Origin: a virus
DNA length: 64,000 nt
IMG/VR virus record: IMGVR_UViG_3300045988_159857
Location: 1-64,000 of that record
Reading direction: 5' to 3' (one strand)
Shown here: in pieces, positions 41,539 to 64,000 of the stretch
How the letters are laid out: each line of letters starts with the position of its first letter
How positions within the stretch are numbered: position 1 is the stretch's first letter
Translations under genes and position numbers: made by a program
Notes under the pieces: generated by a model
Seen by the model: only the letters and a program-made list of their open reading frames with translations
The model's database searches: none
Told to the model about the DNA's origin: nothing

Positions 41539-41633
41539 TGGCGTCAGCGATTGGACTTGAACCAACACACCGTTAAAAACGACTACTCAAGGATTAGCAA
41601 TCCTCTACCTTACCAAATTAGGTTTACGCTGAC
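41539..41633 (-). tRNA. tRNA-Ser (anticodon GCU), CCA encoded
   Basis: Hand-folded. Acceptor GTCAGCG/CGCTGAC, anticodon arm GAGGA-TTGCTAA-TCCTT, long variable arm, T arm with TTCAAGT loop. Confidence 0.8.
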
Positions 41634-42032
41634 AAATGGGAAAGTTTTTAATTATTAGAATAATAATTATTATAATAATAATCAAGGAATTACCAGAACT
41701 TTCAAACCTTCAGGAGTATATACTCTTTATCGTTTGTATTACTCTAAAAAACTAATCGGGTATTCTGTACGAAGTACTTTTTAACTAGTATGAATAAAGT
41801 ATTCGTACAGAATACTTAGAAAAACTAAGATAAAGTTTATTAAACCCTAACTTTTTTGATAAAATAAGTGATATTAAGTCTTAGAACTTGTTATTCCGCA
41901 GAATCAATCATTCAACTTAACTTGTCTTTTGTAGTCACTTAACTACTCAGGTTCTTTGTCAGCTACCTCGACCCCATCACTTAGACATCGTCCTTTCATA
42001 CTTTGCCATTCTTAAGATAGTGAATTAGGACT

Positions 42033-42108
42033 TGGCTCCTCAAGTTGGACTTGAACCAACGACTTCTTGGTTAACAGCCAAGCGTTCTACCAACTGAACT
42101 ATTGAGGA
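42033..42108 (-). tRNA. tRNA-Asn (anticodon GUU), CCA encoded
   Basis: Perfect cloverleaf. TCCTCAA/TTGAGGA, D arm GTTC-AGTTGGTA-GAAC, CTTGG-CTGTTAA-CCAAG, GTTGG-TTCAAGT-CCAAC. Confidence 0.9.
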
Positions 42109-42116
42109 ATATTTAA

Positions 42117-42193
42117 TGGTGACGACAAGGAGATTTGAACTCACTATTATATGCGTGAAAGGCATATGTCCTTACCTATTAGACGATGTCGCC
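42117..42193 (-). tRNA. tRNA-Glu (anticodon UUC), CCA encoded
   Basis: Acceptor GGCGACA/TGTCGTC (one G-U pair), anticodon arm TATGC-CTTTCAC-GCATA, T loop TTCAAAT. The T stem has one mismatch. Confidence 0.7.
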
Positions 42194-42363
42194 ATATGAT
42201 GTAATTAAGTGGCTTTCACGCTGACCCAGAGGGCGGATCGCTTGGTTTCCACATTCCAGATAGCTTGTACTTGACTGAGATAGCTATCAGTAATTCTCGG
42301 CTCTTTTATCTCTGGATTATAGAGCAATAAGCGTAGTAAGGTACCGTACTCCAGAGGCTTGAA
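42194..42363 (-). ncRNA. Structured 170-nt spacer RNA of unknown class
   Basis: No ORF. G+C-enriched by eye. AGATAGCT direct repeat (42258, 42278), palindrome GATAGCTATC (42279-42288), motif GGCTTTCAC (42211) shared with 43321. Confidence 0.3.
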
Positions 42364-42434
42364 GCTGGTGAAAGGACTTGAACCTTCAACTTATTGCGTA
42401 CAAAACAATTACTCTACCATTGAGTCACACCAGC
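42364..42434 (-). tRNA. tRNA-Thr (anticodon UGU), no encoded CCA
   Basis: GCTGGTG/CACCAGC, D arm ACTC-AATGGTA-GAGT, ATTGT-TTTGTAC-GCAAT, GAAGG-TTCAAGT-CCTTT. Confidence 0.8.
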
Positions 42435-42772
42435 ATATACAAGGTCGTTAAGTTTCTCGAATAGCGGACGTCCCTTTAACGACCTCTCCGTTCTCTCTAC
42501 ACATGGTAGAGGAACAATTACTTGTTGTCTGGATTTTGACTATTTTGGTTTGGACAAGTAACTCAAACCTCGGGTTTACCTATAACGTCGTTCCCTTATA
42601 AACCACGGAATGTTTTCGATTACATACAACGCTATCTTTTGCCATCCAAGCAGGGCGAGTACTTCCCTTGCTATCTCTAATCCGCTTCAACTATCCTAAA
42701 ACAGCCCGCCCAATTAGTTTTGGCTCTGCGATAACTTGATAGCTTTTAGTTTGTTCACCAACTGAACTTCGG
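42435..42772 (-). ncRNA. Structured 338-nt spacer RNA of unknown class
   Basis: No ORF. Helices include 42443-42451 with 42476-42484 (9 bp perfect), 42495-42500 with 42506-42511, and a 7-bp TACTTGT/ACAAGTA pair. Has a tRNA-like D-arm fragment at 42753-42772. Confidence 0.35.
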
Positions 42773-42859
42773 TGGTACAGGTAGTGGGACTTGCACCCAC
42801 ACGGAGTTTCCTCCACAGGTTTTTAAGACCTGTATGTCTGCTTATTTCATCATACCTGC
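42773..42859 (-). tRNA. tRNA-Leu (anticodon UAA), copy 1, CCA encoded
   Basis: Type II tRNA. Anticodon arm CAGGT-CTTAAAA-ACCTG, variable arm, T arm GTGGG-TGCAAGT-CCCAC, G1-U72 pair. Confidence 0.8.
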
Positions 42860-43094
42860 TTATAAATTTTATGTTCGATTACCTTCTAACGAACATTAGT
42901 ATTAAATATTAGTGGTATTTAATACTTTTCTCACTCACGGCTAACCCACTAAGTTATTTGTAGGAGGAAGATTTCGCATAATTAAACTTGTTACAGATCG
43001 ACATCTGAATTTAGGGCTCGAACCTAATAACAGAGGCTTAACCATTTTAGGAGCTACCTTGGACAAATTTTACGCTATATATCCATCAAGCGGC
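42860..43094 (-). ncRNA. Structured 235-nt spacer with an orphan T-arm
   Basis: T-arm-like TTAGG-TTCGAGC-CCTAA (43011-43027) with no matching acceptor stem. Hairpins at 42871-42896, 42898-42926 (11 bp) and 42994-43007. Confidence 0.3.
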
Positions 43095-43181
43095 TGGTAC
43101 CGATGACCGGACTTGAACCGGTACGAGGTTTCCCTCACAGGTTTTTAAGACCTGAGTGTCTGCCTATTCCACCACAACGGC
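43095..43181 (-). tRNA. tRNA-Leu (anticodon UAA), copy 2, CCA encoded
   Basis: Same anticodon arm as copy 1. T arm ACCGG-TTCAAGT-CCGGT. The acceptor has G1-U72 and a U5-U68 mismatch. Confidence 0.7.
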
Positions 43182-43226
43182 ATATAATCTACACTCTTTA
43201 TTTAATGTGTCGAGTGCACAAACACA

Positions 43227-43303
43227 TGGTCGAGATGACAGGACTTGAACCTGTGACTTCTGCACCCCAGATGCAGCGCCCTACCCAACTGGGCTACATC
43301 TCG
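43227..43303 (-). tRNA. tRNA-Pro (anticodon UGG), CCA encoded, apparent C at position 33
   Basis: CGAGATG/CATCTCG, D arm GCCC-AGTTGGGTA-GGGC, anticodon arm CTGCA-TCTGGGG-TGCAG, ACAGG-TTCAAGT-CCTGT. Confidence 0.75.
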
Positions 43304-43339
43304 ATAATGTTGAGCCAAAGGGCTTTCACCTTTGGGAAC

Positions 43340-43397
43340 AATGGTTGGATTTGCACTGCAGTTGCTTACCAACAGTCTTTCCAGGCGACTAACCATT
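43340..43397 (-). ncRNA. 58-nt tRNA-like minihelix
   Basis: 7-bp closing stem AATGGTT/AACCATT, D-arm-like AGTC-GCCTGGAAA-GACT, a short GTTG-GTAAG-CAAC hairpin and a T-loop-like TGCAAAT with no T stem. Confidence 0.3.
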
Positions 43398-43454
43398 AAC
43401 TTCAGTTACATTGTTTTTTCATATTAACATATTTTAAGAAATTTTCTTTTCGGT

Positions 43455-43528
43455 CGAAGCTTTGAAAACTCGAATTTCAACCTTTCCCCTGACATAACGG
43501 GGACGTGCTATCCACTACACTAAACTTC
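43455..43528 (-). ncRNA. Non-canonical tRNA-like gene (9-nt anticodon loop)
   Basis: Acceptor GAAGTTT/AAGCTTC. Only 1 nt before D stem GTGT/GCAC. Anticodon stem TCCCC/GGGGA encloses GTTATGTCA. Normal T arm TGAAA-TTCGAGT-TTTCA. No CCA. Confidence 0.4.
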
Positions 43529-55836: not shown

Positions 55837-56028
55837 TTAAACATATATTTCCTCATCCGAGTGTGGTCCAAATTTATTTTGATATTTAAACCTGTACGAT
55901 GATTTGGTAACAACACTAGGTGAGCAATGATATAAAGTATCATCTTCCAATTTAATATAAATTAAAGGGTCATCATCCCCACTAAGTATAAAACCTTTAC
56001 TTTCTGTAAATGTGTACTTAATTTTCAT
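55837..56028 (-). CDS. Hypothetical small protein
   Basis: 63-aa ORF after promoter 56085-56117. Confidence 0.5.
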   Translation of the reverse strand: MKIKYTFTESKGFILSGDDDPLIYIKLEDDTLYHCSPSVVTKSSYRFKYQNKFGPHSDEEIYV

Positions 56029-56084
56029 AATCTTTAAACCATTTCCATTCTACCATTGTATCGCTACCTAAATTTTATACTTAA

Positions 56085-56117
56085 ATTATAGTAAATATTA
56101 AATAAATTATCAACTAA
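56085..56117 (-). promoter_or_regulatory. TTAGTTGA-type promoter
   Basis: TTAG + -35 TTGATA (56108-56113), a 17-nt spacer and -10 TATAAT (56085-56090). Confidence 0.6.
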
Positions 56118-56150
56118 AAAATACATTATTTTTAAAAATGCGAAACATAA

Positions 56151-56181
56151 CGGGGAAAAGACCGTCATGTCATTTTCCCCG
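56151..56181 (-). terminator. Intrinsic terminator after the endolysin gene
   Basis: 9-bp stem, 56151-56159 with 56173-56181 (CGGGGAAAA/TTTTCCCCG). T-rich tract downstream on the minus strand. Confidence 0.55.
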
Positions 56182-56205
56182 TATCACAATTTAAATAAAA
56201 ATAAA

Positions 56206-57288
56206 TTACTTGTAAATCTTAAGTACTTGTCCAACATAAATCCTGTTAGGATTAGAGATACCGTTGTCAGAAGCTATCTTACGATAGTTTGTATGGTATT
56301 TTACAGCAATACTAGAAAGGGTATCTCCACGCTTAACAGTATAAGTTACATAAGAAGGTTTGGGTGTACCAACTTTATTGTTTACAATCTTTTGGATAGT
56401 ATCATAATCGTAACCTGCTGCAGTTAACTTATTCTTACGTTCAGCTCCATTACCCCATTGCCCCTTAAGTACTTCGTTAGCAATTTCTTCATTTGATTTA
56501 ACAGGAACAGTTTTAGTTACTCTTTCGTTAACAATTTTTTGAACAGCACTGTAGTCGTAACCAGCTTCTGTCAAACGTTGTTTACGTTCATCACCGTTAC
56601 CCCATTGTCCGTTTATAATTTCCGTAGCAATTTCCTCATTTGATTTCTTCACAGGAACGGTGTCGGTTGTAGTATCAGAAGATTTAATAACTTCATTATA
56701 CATAATGTTCATATCAACGTTTCCTGAAATACCGTCTACAGAACCCTTTGATGAATACTGCCAAATATCGTATGTTCTTGTAAAGTCGTTAACCTTCGAG
56801 GCGTATTCTGCTACCCACTTACTAACATTGTCGTACCAAGCATCGGTCATTTTCTCGTTCCAGAATGCCGAGCGTGACGAATAAATACCCATCTTATAAC
56901 CAGCTGCGGTTAACTGATTATAAAATTCTTTCATTATTTCTAACATTTTCTCGTTACTAATTGTTCGCCAGTCAAGTCCTTTTGTATTCTCGACATCAAT
57001 GTACACAGGACCATCAATAGTCTTACCATTAAGTAATCTCTTAATGTGAGACATTTCACTAGTTACTTTACTTGTTGTTAAAGCATAACTAAAGAAATAT
57101 ACCGAGACAGGAATACCTACCCTGCGACACTCAGCATAGTTTCTTTCAAACTGTTTGTCATCTTGTGATTTAAGGTCATTACCAAGACCACAGCGAATAA
57201 TAGCGAATTGTACACCAGAAGCCTTTACTTTGTCCCAGTTAATTTCGCCTTGATATTTCGACACATCAATACCTTTAAATTCTGCCAT
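56206..57288 (-). CDS. Endolysin: GH25 muramidase + two CW_7-type repeats + LysM
   Basis: [29 protein letters not shown] (GH25). Two repeats of the form ...GQWGNG(D/A)ERK..LT(E/A)AGYDY..(V/I)QKIVN. C-terminal [16 protein letters not shown]...GQVLKI (LysM). Confidence 0.85.
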
Positions 57289-57319
57289 ATAATAATCTCC
57301 TTTTTAATTATTTAATATT

Positions 57320-57487
57320 TTAGGTAAGTGTTTCTTTGTAAGGACATGTTTCTAAACACTTGTCTAAGTCACAATAAGTGTCATATACAGCGTCGAACAC
57401 ACTGTTATTCTGTTCCATCGCTTTTTCTTTTATTGAGTCTCCAACAGGACATTCATCACACTTTAAGTATTTTGTTCTATCAAATAT
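57320..57487 (-). CDS. Possible Cys-rich mini-protein lacking a canonical start codon
   Basis: My translation: (I)FDRTKYLKCDECPVGDSIKEKAMEQNNSVFDAVYDTYCDLDKCLETCPYKETLT. In-frame ATA at 57487, 8 nt after AAAGGTGGG. The only ATG (57418) would remove the CxxC. Confidence 0.3.
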   Translation of the reverse strand: MFDRTKYLKCDECPVGDSIKEKAMEQNNSVFDAVYDTYCDLDKCLETCPYKETLT

Positions 57488-57488
57488 A

Positions 57489-57677
57489 TCAATTACCCAC
57501 CTTTACATATAACCCACAATGACAAGGTCCAGGGTCCTTACAGTTTATAAAATCTTTACACATACATTTAGTGTCTTCATTTTTAATTAAACGACAAGGA
57601 CAATATCCATCATTATCTTTTAATTTCTTTCTAATGGAGTTTACAAGACTTTCGTCATTGTTGACGACTATCTTCAT
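57489..57677 (-). CDS. Ferredoxin:thioredoxin-reductase catalytic-subunit-like (FTR/FDR-like) mini-protein
   Basis: 62 aa with GYCPC-x9-CMC-x11-CHCGLY, the CPC...C.C...CHC pattern of FTR beta-type proteins. Confidence 0.5.
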   Translation of the reverse strand: MKIVVNNDESLVNSIRKKLKDNDGYCPCRLIKNEDTKCMCKDFINCKDPGPCHCGLYVKVGN

Positions 57678-57678
57678 T

Positions 57679-58152
57679 TTAACTTATCACCTCAGCATAT
57701 TGATTGTCACTTACTAAATCTATTCCTAATATTTTGTCATAATGGGGTTTTTGATTGGGAATAAATCTCCCGTATTTGATAATGATATTTTCATATTTAC
57801 TTAACCAAAGTACTTTATCTTGTAACTCATCTTTATAATATCCTGTGTAGATAATAATTTTTGCATCAGTATAATTTCGCGCTGTCTTTACTAAGCTCTT
57901 TAAATCTTCCCAACTATCAAAAGGTTCCAACCCTCCACAAACAATTGCTTTTGTGATATTGTTATTTATGAACTTTTTAACAATTGAACCTTCCGTTACA
58001 TAAATATCTTTTTCATTTGTAAGGGAGATGTTTTGACAGACACAGTTCCCATTTTCCTTGTTACATTTGAAAGAACACTTTGGAAAGATTATAAACATTG
58101 AAGGTTCTTTGTAATTACAGAAATCCTCGTATATTATATCTTTAACAAACAT
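57679..58152 (-). CDS. nrdG: Anaerobic ribonucleotide reductase activase (NrdG-like radical-SAM protein), atypical Cys spacing
   Basis: Architecture parallels T4 NrdG: ...DFCNY...IIFPKCSFKCNKENGNCVCQN...VCGGLEP...IIIYTGYY...KYGRF. Lies directly downstream of nrdD. Confidence 0.65.
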   Translation of the reverse strand: MFVKDIIYEDFCNYKEPSMFIIFPKCSFKCNKENGNCVCQNISLTNEKDIYVTEGSIVKKFINNNITKAIVCGGLEPFDSWEDLKSLVKTARNYTDAKIIIYTGYYKDELQDKVLWLSKYENIIIKYGRFIPNQKPHYDKILGIDLVSDNQYAEVIS

Positions 58153-58611
58153 TTACATCACCATGTCGTGTTCTAATACCGAGTACCACTTACGCATATC
58201 TCCTTCTTTACGGCGAACCGTTTGCCAACTACTAACAGGGGTGTAGAAACCTACAACTCTACGGTATTTGTCCTTAACGCCTTTCCCACACATAGGGCAC
58301 TTTGTAGTTCCTATGAAAGAGTGTCCGTCTTCACATACATTTATTGTGGTAGTAAACGCCGAATATATTACCTTATGTTCCGCAAGATAATTTAACATTT
58401 CCCAAGCAGCTTCTTCTGTCGGGAATCTATTTTCAATGTTAATGTGTGCAATAGCTCCTCCGCTACAAAGATTGTCTAATACACTACTTACAGCACACTT
58501 TTCTTCAATAGTACATTTTTCATAAAGGGGTATCCACTGATTTGACAGTATAAAGTATGAGTTGTCTCCTGTAACTACTTTAGACTTTATATTTAATTCA
58601 TTGAACTTCAT
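58153..58611 (-). CDS. nrdD: Class III ribonucleotide reductase NrdD, C-terminal fragment (Zn site + glycyl-radical domain)
   Basis: LSNQWIPLY, CEDGH...CPMCG and RRVVGFYTPVSSW (glycyl-radical motif). Start moved to ATG 58611 (AAGGAG 8 nt upstream). Confidence 0.8.
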   Translation of the reverse strand: MKFNELNIKSKVVTGDNSYFILSNQWIPLYEKCTIEEKCAVSSVLDNLCSGGAIAHINIENRFPTEEAAWEMLNYLAEHKVIYSAFTTTINVCEDGHSFIGTTKCPMCGKGVKDKYRRVVGFYTPVSSWQTVRRKEGDMRKWYSVLEHDMVM

Positions 58612-59428
58612 TACCATAACTCCTTAATTCACTAATAAAATTTTCAAACTGACTGCGATATATCGTCATATAGTTTAATTTATTTTTAATTGCAAGTTCA
58701 TGTTTTTTCTTGTCTAAGATTGACCAAGTGTATATTATCATATTTGACCAATCGTCTCCTTTCTGAAGTAGTTCGTTCAGAACTTTTACATCACGGTCGC
58801 ATTTATCATTGTATGCGTGGTCAAAATGTGAGGGGTGTATATTCAACTCAATAAATAAATCTTGTGATTTTATATAGAAATCACACTTATAAGGGTATCT
58901 TTCATCTGTGTATTGACATATTATATCATCTTTATTATATTTACATTGTAAGGCTTCGTAAGCAAGATGTTCATAACTAGAAGTTGCATATGTCCCATTT
59001 TTCTTGCGGGTTTCGTTTGCAACCATACTTCTTCTTTTATACTCTTCTTTCGAAATAGTTTTTCTATTCCTTCTTGCAGAATCAGACATCCTTTTGTGGT
59101 ATAAGTCGTACTCCTCTTTTGTCCAAGAATTTCTGGACTGTTCTTTTTTGTATTCCCTATTATCACGATAGTCGTCCGAAACATTTTGCCAGAACTCTTT
59201 TAGGGTATTAGAAATCTTCTCACTACGTTTACGGTTGTATTCTTCCCACATACCATTATTCTTTAATTTATCATTAACTTTTCTAACCCCGGCACCAGAT
59301 TTTTCATTAAGTTCTTTCTGATTCCAATTTCCAATTGACCATCCCTCATCAATATATCTTGACAAATCCTCTGTTCTCACTTTAGTGTTTATGTGGTCCT
59401 TATTTATAAAAGTATATATCTTTCCCAT
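58598..59428 (-). CDS. Free-standing PD-(D/E)xK-like homing endonuclease inserted in nrdD
   Basis: Basic repeat-rich N-terminal region. Core YPYKCDFYIKSQDLFIELNIHPSHFDH resembles the core of ORF 10089-11558. Start moved to MGKIYTF (SD AAGGTGA). Confidence 0.55.
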   Translation of the reverse strand: MGKIYTFINKDHINTKVRTEDLSRYIDEGWSIGNWNQKELNEKSGAGVRKVNDKLKNNGMWEEYNRKRSEKISNTLKEFWQNVSDDYRDNREYKKEQSRNSWTKEEYDLYHKRMSDSARRNRKTISKEEYKRRSMVANETRKKNGTYATSSYEHLAYEALQCKYNKDDIICQYTDERYPYKCDFYIKSQDLFIELNIHPSHFDHAYNDKCDRDVKVLNELLQKGDDWSNMIIYTWSILDKKKHELAIKNKLNYMTIYRSQFENFISELRSYGNEVQ

Positions 59429-59494
59429 CAAATCACCTTTACCAATTGATTTTACGTATATATACAATTTTAAATTTGAAATCAGTGGTTACCT

Positions 59495-61189
59495 TTAACG
59501 TATTCTATATCTTTCTATGTATTTCTCGTCCATATCTAATCCATTTCGAATAGCGGTGTCAAATGTCACCTTTATGTCACCATTTTTTTTAGTTACTTTA
59601 ACAATATTAGTGCTATTTATCTTGTAATAGTGGTCCTTGTATTCAAATTCATAATCATAAGCGAGTTTTCTTGCATCCTCAAATAAAAGTTTGTCTGCAG
59701 CACACATGACTCCTGCAGCGTTTTCAGCCGGTATCTGTTCAATATTAAACGTAAACTCGTCTGTAAAATTATCTTTCACATCATTAAGGACATTAAATAT
59801 ATCTTTTGCAAACTCAATACCCTCTTCTGTGTAAGACTTGTATCCCAATTCATCTGTTTGAATGAAACCAAACTCACACATAACTTCATACATTCCAAGA
59901 ATACCTATAGTACAGTATTGTTTATCAAGTTCTACGGCACCTTCTTGATAATTTGGAAGTAATCCTTTTTCAATATTACGTTTAAGTATATGTCGCATAG
60001 CATATAAAGCCTGACAATCAAGGGTTGTTCTCTCTCTTAATTTATCTAAGTACCTTTTCTTGTTACACTTAGTTTCATAAGCAATACGTACAAGGTTTAT
60101 TGTAGAAACACGACAACTACCTACACTAAGAGCACTACCACCTACACTATTTTGAAAAGCTGTTAATTTTGAAGTATCTGAAAGTAATCTACAACAGTTA
60201 GATAACGAGGTTACTTGGTCACTAATAAATAAATTACTATCAGCCCATTTCATGTTATGTTTACTAGCCCAACGAGCAAATTCCTCGTCTTGAAACCTAC
60301 CATCCTTATACAGAAATGACATAGTTAGAACAGGAAAAGTAAACATTTGTTCTGAACGTATGTCAGACACAACTCTCATAAAGTCTTTTTGGAACTGCAT
60401 TATTTCTTCAATACTGTCTATTGCAAAAGTTCCGTCAGGATATTCAAGTCCCCCAAATAAGGCCTCTAAGTATTTTCTATCAAATATAGACATATTTGTA
60501 AAGGCACTTTGGTCAATCCTTAAAAAGGGCTGGTTAAGTCTAAATATCAACTTTTGGAAACACTGGTCTCTGTAATATCCAGGGTCTTTTATGTAAAATC
60601 CTGTCTCAATATCCTTTTTCCAGAACCAATATGCCCATATTAAAATATTTGGAAGTCCTACTGCCCCACTTTGTCTATTAGATAAAAAAGATATAAACTC
60701 TATGCAGTCATCAAGAAATGTAGTTAAATGTTTTGCTGGTTTGTTGTTATAATTGTTTCCGAGGAAGAATAGTCCTTCGCGAGCTAATCTTGATAAGTCT
60801 TGTGCCCAACAATAGGCGAATAAACTACATGAAGTACTATCATTAAGATAAAAACCTTTACTAAATTCTTGTTCCAACCAATCTTTAGCTACTTTAATTC
60901 CAAAAAACTTCTTTATCTCTATAAAGACTTTATTGAGTCCAAAAAGTTTGTCAGAACTTTTTCCTTTTTCAGTCATAAAGGAACGTATGTCACGATGACT
61001 TGAATTAGCATTAGGGTCAATTGAGGCATCAGCCAAGTTTTCAGCTACAATAAAATTTTTCAAAAATTCAGAATAATCTAATTGTGACTCGTCAACACCG
61101 TTAAGTATTTCAAAATCGTTGCCATATTTTATACGCAGGGCATTGAGGGTGCGTTCAAAATCTTTGTTAAGTTTCAACTCGATTTGCAT
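59495..61189 (-). CDS. nrdD: Class III ribonucleotide reductase NrdD, N-terminal fragment
   Basis: SNCCRLLSD, GSCRVSTINL and NIEQIPAENAAGV are typical NrdD segments. The last ~50 aa (YDYEFEYKDHYY...ERYRIR) look unrelated to NrdD. Confidence 0.8.
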   Translation of the reverse strand: MQIELKLNKDFERTLNALRIKYGNDFEILNGVDESQLDYSEFLKNFIVAENLADASIDPNANSSHRDIRSFMTEKGKSSDKLFGLNKVFIEIKKFFGIKVAKDWLEQEFSKGFYLNDSTSCSLFAYCWAQDLSRLAREGLFFLGNNYNNKPAKHLTTFLDDCIEFISFLSNRQSGAVGLPNILIWAYWFWKKDIETGFYIKDPGYYRDQCFQKLIFRLNQPFLRIDQSAFTNMSIFDRKYLEALFGGLEYPDGTFAIDSIEEIMQFQKDFMRVVSDIRSEQMFTFPVLTMSFLYKDGRFQDEEFARWASKHNMKWADSNLFISDQVTSLSNCCRLLSDTSKLTAFQNSVGGSALSVGSCRVSTINLVRIAYETKCNKKRYLDKLRERTTLDCQALYAMRHILKRNIEKGLLPNYQEGAVELDKQYCTIGILGMYEVMCEFGFIQTDELGYKSYTEEGIEFAKDIFNVLNDVKDNFTDEFTFNIEQIPAENAAGVMCAADKLLFEDARKLAYDYEFEYKDHYYKINSTNIVKVTKKNGDIKVTFDTAIRNGLDMDEKYIERYRIR

Positions 61190-61192
61190 ATA

Positions 61193-61411
61193 CTAATTAA
61201 TTCCTCTTCCTTGATTATTAACCCATTCTACAGCTTCAGTAAATCTAAGTAGTTTTCCTTCTACTTCGAGAAGAGGAACTTCGTCAAAACCTTTTGCAAT
61301 AAGTTCGTTTACATCAAAATTTGTTTTCAATGTAAAGTCTATGTTAGCGTTATGAAGTTTCTTAAGTAACACCTCACATTTTGGACATCCTGTTGAATAT
61401 AGCGTTACCAT
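61193..61411 (-). CDS. NrdH/glutaredoxin-like redoxin
   Basis: MVTLYSTGCPKCEVLLKKL... has a CxxC thioredoxin-fold N-terminus. Start set at ATG 61411 (SD GGAG), not the track's 61555. Confidence 0.65.
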   Translation of the reverse strand: MVTLYSTGCPKCEVLLKKLHNANIDFTLKTNFDVNELIAKGFDEVPLLEVEGKLLRFTEAVEWVNNQGRGIN

Positions 61412-61427
61412 AATTACTCCTTTCTTT

Positions 61428-61601
61428 TCAATGGTTAAAGGTATTCTTAGGGGTAAAAGCTCCACAAGGACCTTCAGTGCCATGACAACCGTGTGTATAA
61501 TTAGCACAAGCCCAACATCTCTGTTTGTCCCACTTTCTTTGAAGTGCTCCTTCACTCAATTCACTAAAACTATAAGTAGGTTGTTTAAATTCAATACTCA
61601 T
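61428..61601 (-). CDS. 57-aa Cys/His-rich protein missed by the track
   Basis: My translation: MSIEFKQPTYSFSELSEGALQRKWDKQRCWACANYTHGCHGTEGPCGAFTPKNTFNH. SD AAAGGAG 8 nt upstream. First ORF after promoter 61656-61688. Confidence 0.45.
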   Translation of the reverse strand: MSIEFKQPTYSFSELSEGALQRKWDKQRCWACANYTHGCHGTEGPCGAFTPKNTFNH

Positions 61602-61655
61602 AAATATTACTCCTTTATATAAATTTTACAGAAATTTGTTTTTCTGTTTAATCGT

Positions 61656-61688
61656 ATTATAATAGAGTAATATATTTATTTCAACTAA
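61656..61688 (-). promoter_or_regulatory. TTAGTTGA-type promoter of the redoxin/nrd operon
   Basis: TTAG + -35 TTGAAA (61679-61684), a 17-nt spacer and -10 TATAAT (61656-61661). Confidence 0.6.
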
Positions 61689-61696
61689 GTTAACAT

Positions 61697-61721
61697 AAAC
61701 CGATAGTTTATCTATCGGTTT
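61697..61721 (-). terminator. Hairpin overlapping a stop codon (weak terminator)
   Basis: 10-bp stem, 61697-61706 with 61712-61721 (AAACCGATAG/CTATCGGTTT). No clear U-tract. Confidence 0.4.
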
Positions 61722-61915
61722 AACATCATTAACAATTGGTCACCGTTTGCGACCTTTCTACCATAAAAATCTCTTGTTACGTTTAATTTTTTATCGTATT
61801 TACCCTTAATTCTTCCATAAAAATCTCGGATAATTTTATTTCCGGTACGGGAATCTGTTTCAACGAAACCTATTATCTTCCCTGTCCAATCTTTTATCTT
61901 CTCTTTATGAACCAT
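61712..61915 (-). CDS. Small protein with a duplicated RDFYGR motif
   Basis: 67 aa: ...IIRDFYGRIKGKYDKKLNVTRDFYGRKVANGDQL. Confidence 0.55.
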   Translation of the reverse strand: MVHKEKIKDWTGKIIGFVETDSRTGNKIIRDFYGRIKGKYDKKLNVTRDFYGRKVANGDQLLMMLNR

Positions 61916-62273
61916 CCAAAAACAACTCCTTCATATTAACAATCCTTGACAAGGCTTCTTCTACACTTAATACGTTGACTTGAGTTATACCTTTTCGCCT
62001 GTCGTTAACAAATATATCTATTGCTTTCTCCAACTTTGCTGGATTAAACTGTTGGTAGTCGTATACAAATGTTCTAGGTATTGTATAATCATTCTCCTGG
62101 TCAATTATTTGTGGTCCGTATTGAATTATTTTACTGAACCCGTCTTTTGTTTCAACTATAAATAAGTATTCACAGAAATTATCATTTATACACGAAAGTG
62201 CAAACTCTCCAATATTATCTATTTCAAATGTACCATTAGATTGTCGAACATAGTAATAATTGAATGAAGGCAT
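61905..62273 (-). CDS. Hypothetical protein
   Basis: Track ORF 61905..62312. Start moved to MPSFNYYY (ATG 62273), directly after the SSB-like gene's stop. Confidence 0.5.
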   Translation of the reverse strand: MPSFNYYYVRQSNGTFEIDNIGEFALSCINDNFCEYLFIVETKDGFSKIIQYGPQIIDQENDYTIPRTFVYDYQQFNPAKLEKAIDIFVNDRRKGITQVNVLSVEEALSRIVNMKELFLDGS

Positions 62274-62274
62274 A

Positions 62275-62871
62275 TCAATCAACAACCTCGTATTTAGTAA
62301 TGTAAACCTCATGTGCTATACGAATTTCATAGTCCCCGTTATCAAGTAATTGTTTATGTTCTCTAGACCTAAATTCTCCTGACACTTTTAACTTTGTGTC
62401 TACACATTTAAAGGATAATTCTTTCGCTATTTTACCCCAACATATACAAGGAATATATGAATTCAACCTTTTTTGTTTATCCTCGGATACAATATTATTT
62501 GCCAGAATAAAGTGTAAGTTATCCTTACCTGTACGTGTTTTTCTTATTTCACTTATTTTACAAATCCTACCATCTAACTCAACACTATTTACAACATCCG
62601 TTTTCGGTTTGTCAAAGTAGGTAAAAACGTACATATCCACTTTATTTTTGTTATTACTAACCTTATGCGAATATGACCTAATGTTTCCAGTTAAACTAAC
62701 CATGTCATTTTCTTTGTACGGATTAGTAAATTTTTTAAACTTTATATTCAAGACATCTTCAGTTCCATTATCTCGAGGTACAAGTAATTTAGCTTTATTG
62801 AATTCAATTCCTTGTATTGTGTGGGAAGGTTCAATATCTTTGATATAACCTTTCAAAGTAACTTTGTTCAA
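62275..62871 (-). CDS. Single-stranded-DNA-binding-like protein (two OB-fold-like halves)
   Basis: Start moved to TTG 62871 (SD AAGGGGTGA 6 nt upstream), which gives MNKVTLKGYIKD..., an SSB-like N-terminus. A second half follows: NSVELDGRICKISEIRKT.... Confidence 0.5.
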   Translation of the reverse strand: MNKVTLKGYIKDIEPSHTIQGIEFNKAKLLVPRDNGTEDVLNIKFKKFTNPYKENDMVSLTGNIRSYSHKVSNNKNKVDMYVFTYFDKPKTDVVNSVELDGRICKISEIRKTRTGKDNLHFILANNIVSEDKQKRLNSYIPCICWGKIAKELSFKCVDTKLKVSGEFRSREHKQLLDNGDYEIRIAHEVYITKYEVVD

Positions 62872-62885
62872 ACTATATTCACCCC

Positions 62886-64000
62886 TTATACACACATTTT
62901 CCACTGTCCATTATCATAAACATATGGCACTGCGGATAACCATTTTTGTTGTTTTTCATCGTATACAAAAACTGCAGCTGGAGTTGGGACACTTGTCGGT
63001 TCCGTAAAAACTCTCGCACACCCGGTAGGTGTGTTTGTTACAGTATTTGAATGATAAGTTACATTATTTGAATCTTTAGTAGCATAAGCTGTTCCTGATA
63101 TAGGAACATTGGGAACACCTGTCACCCTAAATGTACATTTTGTTGTAGCTGTAGTTGTGGTGTTAACTATTCGTGTGCCGTCATTGAGTAATAAATACCA
63201 GTTACGACATGGGACATCACTTTCCGCTGTGTAAACAATATCTAATCCTTCTACAACACTGGCTAATTTAATTATTGGATAAGTCGTATCACAGTTAATT
63301 GTTGTTGAATTGTCAATACGAGTATTATCGAGTCTTTGTAAAGTGATGTTGTAAGAACGGTTTGTGTTCTCACCTAAATTAACATTAAAAGTTCCTTTAT
63401 AATTTTGTGTGTTACCAACATAAACCCCTTCGAACCACACACTAGAATTTATATCAGTATCTAAACTTAATATTCCGGAAGTATTGTCAGTAACTGTTAT
63501 CTTTGCATTATTTATAGCAGGCCTTCTGCAATCCCATGTTACGGTTGGGCTTTGTCCCCAAGGACCATTTACACGCTTTGCCCAAAGATAAACAGTGTGA
63601 ATAGTGGGACTTATATTACTTAGTGACCACGTACCGTTTGTAGTAGCTTGTGACCAATATGTTGTGTCTCCTGTACCATCTAAGTTATACATCCAAATGT
63701 CACAACTTACATCACTACCAGCTTCCCAATATAAGGAGGATGCAGTACAACCTGCATTACTTAACCACACATTAGGAGGGGCATAAGCCGGTGCCCCAAC
63801 TACCACTGACCAAACAACTTCCCAAGTATTTTTTGCGGGACACCCACAACTTGATTTTGTCCAAATTTTCAGTGTGACAGTATCTCCATAGTTAGTTGTA
63901 GAAACGGTTACATTACCACTATACCTCCCTGAACTCCATTTATTTGGACTAGTAGGTTTGTGATATATTTCTACTAGAGGGCTATCATCAATACTTGCAG
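62886..64000 (-). CDS. Fn3/Ig-like repeat structural protein, C-terminal part (gene starts beyond window end)
   Basis: The frame of track ORF 62886..63806 stays open to position 64000 by my translation (...TVTLKIWTKSSCGCPAKNTWEVVWSVVVGAP...). Thr/Asn/Trp-rich, beta-sandwich-like sequence. Confidence 0.55.
   Translation of the reverse strand, partial: ASIDDSPLVEIYHKPTSPNKWSSGRYSGNVTVSTTNYGDTVTLKIWTKSSCGCPAKNTWEVVWSVVVGAPAYAPPNVWLSNAGCTASSLYWEAGSDVSCDIWMYNLDGTGDTTYWSQATTNGTWSLSNISPTIHTVYLWAKRVNGPWGQSPTVTWDCRRPAINNAKITVTDNTSGILSLDTDINSSVWFEGVYVGNTQNYKGTFNVNLGENTNRSYNITLQRLDNTRIDNSTTINCDTTYPIIKLASVVEGLDIVYTAESDVPCRNWYLLLNDGTRIVNTTTTATTKCTFRVTGVPNVPISGTAYATKDSNNVTYHSNTVTNTPTGCARVFTEPTSVPTPAAVFVYDEKQQKWLSAVPYVYDNGQWKMCV

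What the first reader, a model, noticed from the sequence alone, without database searches (positions are those of the whole stretch)
57320..61601. Phage-encoded thiol-based reductant chain for an anaerobic RNR: NrdH-like redoxin + NrdD + NrdG + FTR-like mini-protein
One promoter (61656-61688) heads a string of genes. In order they are a 57-aa Cys/His-rich ORF, a CxxC NrdH/glutaredoxin-like redoxin (61193-61411), nrdD, nrdG, a 62-aa protein with the CPC...CMC...CHC motif of ferredoxin:thioredoxin-reductase catalytic subunits (57489-57677), and possibly another CxxC mini-protein (57320-57487). Established work on the Methanosarcina barkeri class III RNR showed that some NrdD enzymes are reduced not by formate but by an NrdH-like redoxin, which is recycled by an FTR-like ferredoxin:disulfide reductase. 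Finding the whole set on a phage, miniaturised, suggests the phage brings its own ferredoxin-linked electron supply for dNTP synthesis. I do not know of this being described as a phage module.
Basis: partly seen in the sequence, partly recalled or inferred. Interest (0 to 1): 0.65.

Follow-up and report, generated by a model that had tools for sequence, protein, structure and literature searches.

The report
Phage ferredoxin-type reductant module for anaerobic RNR
A gut-type phage carries, in one tight gene string, an oxygen-sensitive enzyme that makes DNA building blocks together with two tiny helper proteins that probably feed it electrons from the host's ferredoxin; hundreds of other phages carry the same set, but I found no paper that describes it as a unit.

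Summary
The genes exist where stated, on the minus strand of a tailed-phage genome. Three corrections apply.

- nrdD is not one gene. A mobile insertion carrying a homing-endonuclease gene splits it into 564-aa and about 152-aa pieces.
- The 62-aa protein scores just below Pfam's FeThRed_B cut-off (19.1 against 22 bits).
- The last mini-ORF lacks a canonical start codon.

The 62-aa protein belongs to a large family with six invariant cysteines (CPC..CMC..CHC). Its profile and its confident AlphaFold model both match only the solved ferredoxin:disulfide reductases 4TPU and 7PWE. NrdD is the Thermotoga type, with the Cys-Cys finger motif, the bottom Cys and the Glu that mark thiol-dependent enzymes. 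The order redoxin(CPxC)–NrdD–NrdG–mini-FDR recurs in 75 of the 80 best of 504 IMG/VR contigs and in prophages. Where the site is readable, every FDR-linked NrdD is the Cys-Cys type (110 of 111).

The function is inferred, not shown. Clostridium phage c-st (2005) and crAss001 (2018) already annotate the FTR-like gene, but I found no paper linking it to the RNR. I rate this a new variant of the Methanosarcina FDR–NrdH–NrdD system, of moderate to good interest.

The parts
61656..61684 (-). Sigma-70-like promoter candidate (TTGAAA-17-TATAAT) heading the gene string.
   Evidence: 11/12 match, joint best in 56000-63000. It lies in the 110-nt gap after a hairpin with a T-run at 61719-61692. This is a consensus match only.
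61428..61601 (-). 57-aa lineage-specific mini-protein with conserved C-x2-C-x6-C-x6-C-GAF-P and two His. Function unknown, possibly metal-binding.
   Evidence: AAGGAG Shine-Dalgarno (ribosome-binding) site 8 nt upstream. No Pfam, PHROG or NCBIfam hit. Homologues occur only in close relatives plus L175 and L015, always just upstream of the redoxin. No PDB match.
61193..61411 (-). 72-aa thioredoxin-fold redoxin with active site G-C9-P-K-C12 and cis-Pro V44-P45. Proposed direct reductant of NrdD.
   Evidence: Sub-threshold hits to Thioredoxin_3 (21.5 bits), MTH895/ArsE (23), YruB Grx-like (20.6) and NrdH (18.8), plus phrog_22. A homologue sits upstream of NrdD in 68/80 viral loci. The motif is CPxC in 92 of 101 sequences, CPKC in 62.
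59495..61189 (-). NrdD N fragment (564 aa): catalytic barrel with C127, C332-C333 and E484, plus a 55-aa non-NrdD tail (59498-59665).
   Evidence: Pfam NRDD 181 bits. T. maritima NrdD 4COI/4U3E at E 7e-115. Motifs. The tail is conserved in L175 and, at lower identity, in L176.
58546..59708 (-). Mobile insertion and co-conversion tract that replaces 52 nt of the intact allele.
   Evidence: blastn against L010, which has an intact 641-aa NrdD. L172 has the same insertion with the ORF frameshifted. No group I or II intron found by Rfam.
58598..59428 (-). 276-aa free-standing homing-endonuclease candidate (289 aa if started at TTG 59467). The C-terminal nuclease-like domain carries RYPYKCDFYI..DLFIELN..H.
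   Evidence: Sits at the same nrdD site in L175 (89% id) and L176 (52% id). 5-8 copies per Lak megaphage genome. Distant relatives carry DUF7487 with NUMOD1/HTH. Invariant residues. Only a weak fold match to Vsr.
58153..58611 (-). NrdD C fragment (about 152 aa) with the Zn site (C95..H99..C107-x2-C110) and the glycyl-radical Gly. That Gly is G123 counted from the ATG at 58617 (codon 58251-58249).
   Evidence: Pfam NRDD 90 bits, profile positions 437-562. Own AAGGAG site 8 nt before the ATG at 58611, inside the end of the endonuclease ORF. The L175 gene call starts at the same Met.
57679..58152 (-). NrdG activase (157 aa, radical-SAM type) with invariant Cys C26, C30 and C39.
   Evidence: Fer4_12 30.9 bits, phrog_626, weak TIGR02491. 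Conservation across 87 sequences.
57489..57677 (-). 62-aa mini ferredoxin:disulfide-reductase (FTR catalytic-core) homologue: C26-P-C28, C38-M-C40, C52-H53-C54.
   Evidence: The family has 1447 50%-identity clusters at E<=1e-3.
57320..57487 (-). About 55-aa mini-protein with four conserved Cys (CxxC ... CxxxC) and a non-canonical start in this phage (ATA 57487 or ATT 57493, after AAAGGTGGG). Function unknown.
   Evidence: A 56-aa homologue with an ATG start, 39% identical, sits at the same place in L175. No PDB match.

Best explanation
The string is a phage operon for anaerobic dNTP synthesis that brings its own disulfide-reducing relay.

- **Activation.** NrdG (radical SAM) installs the glycyl radical on NrdD. 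Here NrdD is assembled from two polypeptides.
- **Catalysis.** NrdD is the thiol-dependent type. Each turnover oxidises an active-site cysteine pair (C127 with the C332/C333 finger).
- **Relay.** The 72-aa CPKC redoxin re-reduces that pair. The 62-aa mini-FDR then re-reduces the redoxin. The mini-FDR is a minimal FTR catalytic core, with a [4Fe-4S] cluster on C26, C38, C40 and C52 beside a redox-active C28-C54 disulfide and H53.
- **Electron source.** The mini-FDR takes electrons one at a time from reduced host ferredoxin, for example from pyruvate:ferredoxin oxidoreductase in a clostridial host.

The phage thereby ties dNTP supply to the abundant low-potential ferredoxin pool rather than to formate or NADPH/thioredoxin reductase.

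**Shown here:** the gene identities, the motifs, the fold and the conserved linkage.

**Inferred:** cluster binding, the partner order, the ferredoxin donor and the activity of the split NrdD.
For: 1. **The mini-protein is an FDR.**
   - C26, P27, C28, C38, C40, C52 and C54 are invariant and H53 is >=90% conserved across 67 homologues.
   - The family profile hits only the FDRs 4TPU and 7PWE with the motifs in register.
   - The model has pLDDT 94.8 and its Foldseek top hits are the same two FDRs.
   - PF02943 is precomputed on most homologues.
2. **NrdD is the thiol type.**
   - It matches TmNrdD at E 7e-115.
   - The CCR, YC and N-x-E motifs are present.
   - SCCR is essential in TmNrdD, and T4 has MGCR instead (PMC4493059).
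3. **Linkage.**
   - 504 IMG/VR contigs encode a relative.
   - In the best 80, NrdD is present in 75, NrdG in 71 and the redoxin in 68, in the same order.
   - The other five lack an NrdD hit. In four of them (L028, L064, L074, L085) the contig ends upstream of the FDR gene. L091 keeps 6 kb of upstream sequence and has NrdG next to the FDR gene, but shows no NrdD hit.
   - The module also occurs in c-st and in prophages of isolate genomes.
4. **All FDR-linked NrdDs are the CC type.** This holds for 110 of 111 loci, even at 24-30% identity. The exception is interrupted at that very site.
5. **Precedent.**
   - The M. barkeri class III RNR is served by FDR plus an operon-encoded NrdH-like protein (Wei 2015, cited in PMC9176816 Table 1, PMC6262447 and PMC5704485).
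   - 7PWE is a natural glutaredoxin-FDR fusion.
   - Methanosarcina atypical Trx with the same GCPKC motif is discussed as an FDR substrate (PMC6262447).
6. **Host FDR genes.** Host-type Clostridia carry longer FDR genes (117-128-aa ORFs), in L140 next to a thioredoxin gene.
Against: - No biochemistry was done.
- The window protein itself is below Pfam's cut-off.
- Foldseek and PDB E-values are modest (0.005-0.2) because the protein is tiny.
- CC-type NrdDs also occur in phages with no FDR within 3 kb (Aeromonas, Vibrio, Desulfovibrio phages, cr116_1). The FDR is therefore not obligatory, and the 110/111 figure may partly reflect a high base rate of CC-type enzymes.
- The FDR gene usually abuts nrdG. 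One NrdG-FDR fusion protein exists (P0243; also L073), which hints at an NrdG partnership.
- crAss001 has the FDR but no NrdD.
- No ferredoxin gene is in the window.
- nrdD is split here, and the function of the split form is untested.
Confidence: 0.6

Rival explanations
1. The mini Fe-S protein serves NrdG, not the redoxin. It would deliver the single electron that reduces the radical-SAM cluster for glycyl-radical formation, the role flavodoxin plays in E. coli. The redoxin would then be recycled by the host thioredoxin reductase.
For: - The FDR gene starts within 50 nt of the nrdG end in 77 of 106 loci. One locus (L073) and one database protein (P0243, 232 aa) are in-frame NrdG-FDR fusions.
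- This NrdG has an unusual Cys spacing.
Against: - A simple electron carrier needs four Cys. Here all six FTR cysteines are invariant and the catalytic His is nearly so, including the disulfide pair.
- In c-st the order is grx-nrdG-nrdD-FDR, so the FDR does not abut nrdG there.
- FTR-type clusters are not classical 2+/1+ carriers (established FTR chemistry, from memory).
- Fusions of adjacent, overlapping genes can arise from single errors.
Confidence: 0.12
2. The FDR and redoxin form a general disulfide-reducing auxiliary metabolic pair. They might keep host or phage thiol proteins reduced or provide oxidative-stress relief. On this view they are not dedicated to the RNR, and their place next to nrdDG only reflects a nucleotide-metabolism or early-gene cluster.
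For: - crAss001 carries the FDR among tRNA genes with no NrdD. Its authors called it an auxiliary metabolic gene (PMC6235969).
- Cellular relatives sit next to ordinary thioredoxin or in unrelated contexts.
- CC-type phage NrdDs exist without an FDR.
Against: - The four-gene order is kept across NrdDs that are only 24-30% identical, and with different flanking genes.
- The crAss001 RNR is a class II enzyme that also needs a thiol reductant, so even there an RNR link is possible.
Confidence: 0.18
3. The 62-aa protein is a structural zinc- or metal-binding mini-protein or regulator that merely retains FTR-like cysteines and has no redox role.
For: - It is very small.
- It scores below the Pfam cut-off.
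- Many phage Cys-rich mini-proteins are Zn fingers.
Against: - The CPC/CxC/CHC register with the FDRs matches exactly, and the fold match to 4TPU and 7PWE is specific.
- The His and Pro of the motifs are conserved.
- The protein is persistently linked with a CxxC redoxin and a thiol-type RNR.
Confidence: 0.05

Closest known systems
Methanosarcina barkeri class III RNR with operon-encoded NrdH-like redoxin and ferredoxin:disulfide reductase (Wei et al. 2015, Biochemistry 54:7019; 'NrdD3' in PMC9176816 Table 1)
   Same: - A glycyl-radical NrdD with NrdG.
- A small thioredoxin-fold CxxC protein in the operon.
- An FTR-catalytic-subunit homologue proposed as the link to ferredoxin.
   Different: - This one is phage-borne.
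- The NrdD is closest to the T. maritima ('NrdD2'/NrdDh) enzyme, not shown to be NrdD3.
- The FDR is a 62-aa bare core with CHC and CMC motifs.
- The FDR gene sits inside the nrd operon.
- I could not read the 2015 paper (not held), so details of the archaeal system rest on citing papers and on memory.
Ferredoxin:disulfide reductases with solved structures: M. acetivorans FDR (PDB 4TPU) and the D. psychrophila glutaredoxin-FDR fusion (PDB 7PWE)
   Same: - The sequence motifs are in register.
- They are the best and only meaningful structural matches, with TM 0.72-0.76 over the whole query.
- 7PWE shows that a Grx-like partner can be physically coupled to an FDR.
   Different: - Those proteins are 173-196 aa, with a rubredoxin or Grx domain, and have CPC..CPC..CYC.
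- The phage protein is 62 aa with no extra domain and has CPC-x9-CMC-x11-CHC.
Plant/cyanobacterial ferredoxin:thioredoxin reductase catalytic subunit (Pfam PF02943)
   Same: - A six-Cys signature including CHC.
- The Pfam match covers profile positions 21-87 of 106.
   Different: - No variable subunit.
- Shorter, with different Cys spacing (canonical CPC-x16-CPC-x8-CHC, from memory).
- Below the gathering score.
Clostridium phage c-st / D-1873 nrd cluster (CST074-CST077)
   Same: - The same four functions: glutaredoxin, NrdG, NrdD and a 63-aa protein.
- The record describes that protein as 'weakly similar to ferredoxin-thioredoxin reductase catalytic chain'.
- The FDR is 57% identical.
   Different: - The gene order is grx-nrdG-nrdD-FDR.
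- NrdD is 978 aa, with a large insertion at the CC site rather than a split.
- NrdG is of another subtype.
- The record gives no functional interpretation.
Genes-in-pieces RNR of Aeromonas phage Aeh1 (nrdA split by mobE; PMC3045599) and 'fractured genes' with Vsr-like homing endonucleases (PMC2677866)
   Same: - An RNR catalytic gene is cut in two by a free-standing endonuclease gene.
- Both fragments carry extra tails that came with the insertion.
- The downstream fragment has its own ribosome-binding site.
   Different: - The target is the class III nrdD, which is not among the enzymes listed in those papers.
- The endonuclease family has no Pfam model. Its distant relatives carry DUF7487.
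- The role of the tails is untested here.

Membership tests
FTR catalytic subunit / ferredoxin:disulfide reductase (Pfam PF02943 FeThRed_B) | Score at or above the Pfam gathering threshold (22 bits). | tested here: not met
   19.1 bits, E 1.4e-3, profile positions 21-87 of 106. Most of the 120 listed homologues do carry a precomputed PF02943 hit. Longer cellular relatives score 22-32 bits.
FTR catalytic subunit / ferredoxin:disulfide reductase | Six conserved Cys in three C-x-C pairs (cluster ligands plus the redox-active disulfide) with a His or Tyr in the last pair. | tested here: met
   C26-P-C28, C38-M-C40 and C52-H-C54. All six Cys are invariant and H53 is >=90% conserved across 67 sequences. 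The pairs are in register with 4TPU and 7PWE.
FTR catalytic subunit / ferredoxin:disulfide reductase | The fold of solved family members. | tested here: met
   AF2 pLDDT 94.8. Foldseek against the PDB gives 4TPU at TMq 0.72 and probability 0.98, and 7PWE at TMq 0.75-0.76 and probability 0.97-0.99. The only other hit is noise.
FTR catalytic subunit / ferredoxin:disulfide reductase | Binds a [4Fe-4S] cluster and reduces disulfides with electrons from ferredoxin. | not testable with these tools
   Needs anaerobic purification, spectroscopy and an activity assay.
Thiol-dependent class III RNR (NrdD2; T. maritima / N. bacilliformis type) | NrdD family membership and the glycyl-radical motif. | tested here: met
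   Pfam NRDD at 181 bits (N fragment) and 90 bits (C fragment). RVVGFY with G123 in the C fragment. NF006127 at 420 + 99 bits.
Thiol-dependent class III RNR (NrdD2) | Cys-Cys in the finger-loop motif (instead of Met-x-Cys), the conserved bottom Cys and the active-site Glu. | tested here: met
   S-N-C332-C333-R aligns to Tm 328-SCCR-331. Y126-C127 aligns to Tm Y124-C125. E484 aligns to Tm E495. The T4 counterpart is MGCR (PMC4493059).
Thiol-dependent class III RNR (NrdD2) | Turnover supported by a redoxin and not by formate. | not testable with these tools
   Needs an enzyme assay.
Methanogen-type class III RNR (NrdD3) system | NrdD3-specific active-site residues. | not testable with these tools
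   No M. barkeri sequence or paper text was available. The strong similarity to TmNrdD argues for NrdD2 instead.
NrdH-redoxin (TIGR02194) | Family HMM above its cut-off, plus the CVQC active site and WSGFRP motif (motifs from memory). | tested here: not met
   18.8 bits against a cut-off of 85.75. The active site is CPKC and there is no WSGFRP. It is a minimal thioredoxin-fold CxxC redoxin, 'NrdH-like' only by size and context.
NrdG (class III RNR activase, radical SAM) | Family HMM and the CxxxCxxC cluster motif. | tested here: inconclusive
   Fer4_12 at 30.9 bits is above its cut-off. TIGR02491 at 27.7 is far below its cut-off of 126. The invariant Cys are C26, C30 and C39, spaced C-x3-C-x8-C rather than CxxxCxxC.
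Free-standing homing endonuclease creating a fractured gene | The insertion is absent from an otherwise near-identical allele, the same site is occupied in diverged genomes, and the gene is multi-copy or decaying. | tested here: met
   L010 is intact. The window and L175 carry an intact ORF, and L172 has it frameshifted. L176 has a 52%-identical ORF at the same site. Lak phages carry 5-8 copies.
Vsr-like homing endonuclease family (Dassa et al. 2009) | Vsr catalytic fold and motifs. | tested here: inconclusive
   Foldseek hits Vsr 1VSR/1CW0 only at E 0.7-0.9 and probability 0.44. The conserved D183..D190..E194..H201 pattern is suggestive.

The most novel reading that the evidence does not exclude
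The operon may encode a complete electron wire, not just its last two steps.

- The two lineage-specific four-Cys mini-proteins that bracket the module (61428-61601 and 57320-57487) could be phage-made metal centres. They would dock onto the bare 62-aa FDR and hand it electrons, doing in trans what the rubredoxin domain fused to the M. acetivorans FDR may do in cis.
- More broadly, the module would show that T. maritima-type class III RNRs are physiologically ferredoxin-driven. The natural reductant of that enzyme has not been identified.
Probability: 0.12. Interest if true: 0.8.

Novelty: new variant of a known kind. Interest (0 to 1): 0.6.

Why it matters
- **A missing reductant.** Class III RNRs were long thought to run on formate. 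Thioredoxin- and ferredoxin-linked versions are recent and rest on very few enzymes. The physiological reductant of the T. maritima type is still unidentified: E. coli thioredoxin fails, and an unknown protein of more than 10 kDa is needed (PMC4493059). Here a compact four-gene set pairs exactly that NrdD type with a CPxC redoxin and a minimal FDR. It recurs in at least 504 viral contigs and in many prophages of gut Firmicutes, which gives a directly testable candidate.
- **A new kind of phage metabolic gene.** If correct, many anaerobe phages plug dNTP synthesis into the host's low-potential ferredoxin pool. The FTR-like gene of crAss001, published as unrelated to replication (PMC6235969), would need a second look. 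That phage's RNR is also thiol-dependent.
- **A minimal enzyme.** At 62 aa, the FDR is by far the smallest relative seen here: the solved FDRs are 173-196 aa and the cellular ORFs 117-128 aa. That makes it a convenient model for this unusual Fe-S/disulfide chemistry.
- **A clean homing-endonuclease series.** The split nrdD provides an empty site, an intact endonuclease and a decayed endonuclease in near-identical phages, all in a class III RNR.

Tried and rejected
- **Group I or II intron in the nrdD insertion.** Rfam found nothing at E<=1 over 8 kb. At E<=10 over 1.3 kb it gave only a 17-bit group II fragment inside the ORF. The C fragment has its own ribosome-binding site, so I reject splicing.
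- **Intein at this break.** The tail does not start with Cys or Ser, stop codons intervene, and the 'DN|S' junction is not conserved in L176. Rejected. A true split-intein block does occur at a different nrdD site in L176.
- **+1 frameshift from the FDR gene into the downstream mini-ORF.** An SD-like AAGGTGG lies 2 nt before AAU-UGA, which recalls prfB. Re-pairing of tRNA-Asn on AUU is poor, and L175 has an ordinary ATG. I consider it unlikely.
- **PDB searches.** The NrdD tail and both four-Cys mini-proteins gave no meaningful hits.
- **Ferredoxin-like gene in the window.** A six-frame motif scan found none.
- **Megablast of the region against 50,697 phage records.** No match.
- **Primary papers.** Wei 2014 and Wei 2015 are not held. 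Five literature searches for a phage FTR/FDR-NrdD link, or for the FDR and Grx-FDR systems, found none.
- **Control phage NrdDs.** I expected formate-type enzymes, but all were CC-type without an FDR. The control did not sharpen the specificity and instead weakens the 110/111 argument.
- **Fold search of the endonuclease.** Inconclusive.

Full report
**What is in the sequence**

Every ORF of 120 aa or more in the 64-kb window lies on the minus strand. The window encodes a major head protein, a prohead protease, a portal and a DNA ligase. It also has nine tRNAs and a GH25/CW_7/LysM endolysin. It is therefore a tailed phage, probably of a Gram-positive anaerobe. GC content is about 31%.

The finding's region reads as follows in the direction of transcription:
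- A promoter-like TTGAAA-17-TATAAT at 61684-61656, just after a hairpin with a T-run.
- A 57-aa Cys/His ORF at 61428-61601.
- A 72-aa CPKC redoxin at 61193-61411.
- NrdD.
- NrdG at 57679-58152.
- A 62-aa CPC..CMC..CHC protein at 57489-57677.
- A small Cys-containing ORF.
- The endolysin.

Gene gaps are 0-3 nt outside the insertion. The promoter is only a consensus match. The scan found 40 such sites against 32 expected by chance.

**Correction 1: nrdD is in pieces**

Pfam NRDD matches two ORFs. The 564-aa ORF covers profile positions 30-445 and the 154-aa ORF covers 437-562, with a 289-aa ORF between them.

- Contig L010 is 96.7% identical and has an uninterrupted 641-aa NrdD. Window 58546-59708 (1163 nt) replaces 52 nt of it.
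- Contig L172 (122 kb, 97.3% identical) has the same insertion, but the middle ORF is frameshifted.
- Rfam finds no intron.
- The C fragment has its own AAGGAG site 8 nt before the ATG at 58611, inside the end of the middle ORF.

The middle ORF is 276 aa from its ATG with a Shine-Dalgarno site.
- It has about 275-aa relatives with no Pfam model.
- More distant relatives carry DUF7487 with NUMOD1/HTH modules.
- Lak megaphages hold 5-8 copies each.
- It occupies the same nrdD site in L175 (89% identical) and in L176 (52% identical).

The 55-aa tail on the N fragment and the roughly 20-aa head on the C fragment are conserved across these lineages. This matches the known 'genes-in-pieces' pattern of Aeh1 NrdA, where such tails are essential for assembly (PMC3045599). 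It also matches 'fractured genes' with Vsr-like endonucleases (PMC2677866). The fold match of my model to Vsr is weak. I infer that the split NrdD is functional, but I did not show it.

**Correction 2: the 62-aa protein**

On its own the protein scores 19.1 bits against FeThRed_B, below the cut-off of 22. The case rests on its family.

- It matches phrog_38239 at E 9e-22.
- 209 homologues are 60-70 aa long, and most carry a precomputed PF02943 hit.
- 1447 clusters at 50% identity reach E<=1e-3.
- In a 67-sequence alignment C26, P27, C28, T36, C38, C40, F43, C52 and C54 are invariant, and H53 is nearly so.
- The profile hits the M. acetivorans FDR (4TPU, E 5e-3) and the D. psychrophila Grx-FDR fusion (7PWE, E 9e-3), with all three Cys pairs in register.
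- The AlphaFold model is confident at pLDDT 94.8. Its only real Foldseek matches are those two entries.

I conclude that it is a minimal FDR/FTR catalytic core. Cluster binding and activity remain inferred.

**NrdD subtype**

The N fragment matches T. maritima NrdD (4COI/4U3E) at E 7e-115. 'SNCCRLL' aligns to Tm 328-SCCR-331. That motif is essential by mutagenesis, and its T4 counterpart is MGCR (PMC4493059). Y126-C127 aligns to Tm Y124-C125 and E484 to Tm E495. These are the features attributed to thioredoxin-type 'NrdD2' enzymes (PMC4390871; PMC9176816 Table 1). Whether the enzyme also fits the methanogen 'NrdD3' definition could not be tested.

**The redoxin**

The redoxin gives sub-threshold hits to several thioredoxin-fold families. 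It has G-C-P-K-C and a V-P cis-Pro candidate. It is not an NrdH in the strict sense, scoring 18.8 bits against a cut-off of 85.75. Across related loci the active site is CPxC in 92 of 101 sequences, mostly CPKC. PMC6262447 lists a Methanosarcina atypical Trx with the same GCPKC motif in its discussion of FDR substrates. The text and the table of that paper disagree on which Trx is meant.

**Comparative genomics**

- In IMG/VR, 504 contigs encode a relative of the mini-FDR. In the best 80 loci, NrdD lies just upstream in 75, NrdG in 71 and the redoxin in 68, in the same order. Of the five without an NrdD hit, four are cut short upstream by the contig end. L091 keeps 6 kb upstream and has NrdG, but no NrdD hit.
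- In GTDB genomes there are at least 589 hits. Of the 71 kept loci that have at least 3 kb of upstream sequence, 39 have NrdD.
- In the isolate genomes L112 and L115 the module sits among phage-type nucleotide-metabolism genes. L115 also has an integrase nearby. Both therefore look like prophages.
- The remaining genomic hits were sampled at two loci. There the FDR-like ORFs are 117-128 aa and cellular. In L140 the ORF sits next to thioredoxin.
- Clostridium phage c-st has grx-nrdG-nrdD-FDR. Its 2005 annotation already notes the weak FTR similarity.
- All FDR-linked NrdDs where the site is readable (110 of 111) carry CCR, YC and N-x-E, even at 24-30% identity.
- Caveat: four phage NrdDs without a nearby FDR are also CC-type. 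The FDR implies a thiol-type NrdD, but the reverse does not hold.

**Mechanism and rivals**

The best reading, at about 0.6, is a relay: host ferredoxin to mini-FDR to CPKC redoxin to the NrdD cysteine pair.

The main rivals are these:
- The FDR serves NrdG. The FDR gene abuts nrdG in most loci, and rare NrdG-FDR fusions exist. The invariance of the disulfide cysteines and the near-invariance of the His argue against this.
- The pair is a general disulfide-reducing accessory. crAss001 carries the FDR without NrdD. However, its RNR gp69 is a class II enzyme with the Cys-rich C-terminal finger, and that enzyme also needs a thiol reductant (PMC5704485).

No ferredoxin gene is in the window.

**The two extra mini-proteins**

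The 57-aa ORF has only lineage-restricted homologues in L010, L172, L175 and L015. They always sit just before the redoxin and conserve C-x2-C-x6-C-x6-C-GAF-P.

The ORF at 57320-57487 lacks a canonical start here. It has a 39%-identical homologue with an ATG start in L175, and four Cys are conserved. Neither protein matches anything solved, and neither is part of the widely conserved module.

**Novelty**

The biochemical paradigm is known from M. barkeri. The gene has been annotated in c-st and crAss001. The crAss001 paper called it unrelated to replication (PMC6235969).

Across the literature searches that bear on it, I found no paper that describes a phage FDR-redoxin-NrdD module. Those searches cover only the held library, and the two primary papers could not be read.

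I classify this as a new variant of a known kind. It combines a bare 62-aa FDR core with an NrdD2-type enzyme, it is encoded inside the operon, and it is widespread in phages of anaerobes.

Noticed in passing
window 58546-59708 (insertion); fragments 59495-61189 and 58153-58611: nrdD is split by a free-standing homing-endonuclease gene. Close relatives show the whole cycle: an empty site (L010), an intact endonuclease (window, L175) and a frameshifted one (L172). The tail on the N fragment and the head on the C fragment are conserved, as with the Aeh1 NrdA 'genes in pieces'.
   Followed up: yes
L176:500-5283; L001 (c-st CST076); L121: In L176, NrdD is in three pieces. The first break is at the catalytic Cys-Cys motif, and fragment 2 opens with a classic intein C-terminal block (..VYDIEV..DHTF..VEN|CRLL). 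This suggests a split or decayed intein with a degenerate 401-aa ORF between the fragments. The 978-aa c-st NrdD and the L121 NrdD are also interrupted exactly at the CC site.
   Followed up: partly
window 57679-58152: Across 87 sequences, the NrdG of this module has invariant cysteines at C26, C30 and C39 (C-x3-C-x8-C) instead of the canonical radical-SAM CxxxCxxC. The c-st NrdG reads C-x5-C-x2-C.
   Followed up: partly
window 61428-61601: A 57-aa orphan with four conserved Cys and two His (RC..CAN..HGCHG.EGPCGAF.P). It is found only in this lineage and in L015, always directly upstream of the redoxin. It has no family or PDB match.
   Followed up: partly
window 57320-57505: A conserved mini-gene of about 55 aa with four Cys, whose CxxC lies upstream of any ATG/GTG/TTG. 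The likely start is ATA or ATT, after a strong AAAGGTGGG. The layout (SD-like, 2 nt, AAU-UGA) also loosely recalls the prfB +1 frameshift site at the end of the FDR gene.
   Followed up: partly
proteins P0243, P0225, P0205/P0211/P0215; L073: Natural fusions of the mini-FDR exist. The partners are NrdG (232 aa), a HAD-like phosphatase, and an unknown N-terminal domain of about 65 aa.
   Followed up: partly
L002/L174 (Bacteroides phage crAss001): crAss001 gp5, the FTR-like protein, sits in a tRNA array. The phage has no NrdD. Its RNR gp69 is a class II enzyme with a C-terminal Cys-rich finger. gp56, annotated as an HxsC-like radical-SAM maturase, is a small radical-SAM protein of unclear role.
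   Followed up: partly
L140:5809-6505 (Agathobacter rectalis), L130:5845-6198: Cellular Clostridia carry longer FTR-like ORFs (117-128 aa) that are 53-57% identical in the core to the phage mini-FDR. In L140 one lies immediately upstream of a canonical thioredoxin gene. These are a likely source of the phage gene.
   Followed up: partly
window 43455-43528: ARAGORN calls a tRNA-His with anticodon ATG, where GTG is usual, inside the eight-gene tRNA cluster at 41539-43528.
   Followed up: no
window 61712-61915: A 67-aa protein with repeated 'RDFYGR' motifs lies just upstream of the module's promoter. Similar proteins sit upstream of the module in L012 and L016.
   Followed up: no
window 56206-57288: The endolysin (GH25 + two CW_7 + LysM) follows the nrd string directly on the same strand. 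No holin-like gene and no terminator-like site lies between them.
   Followed up: no
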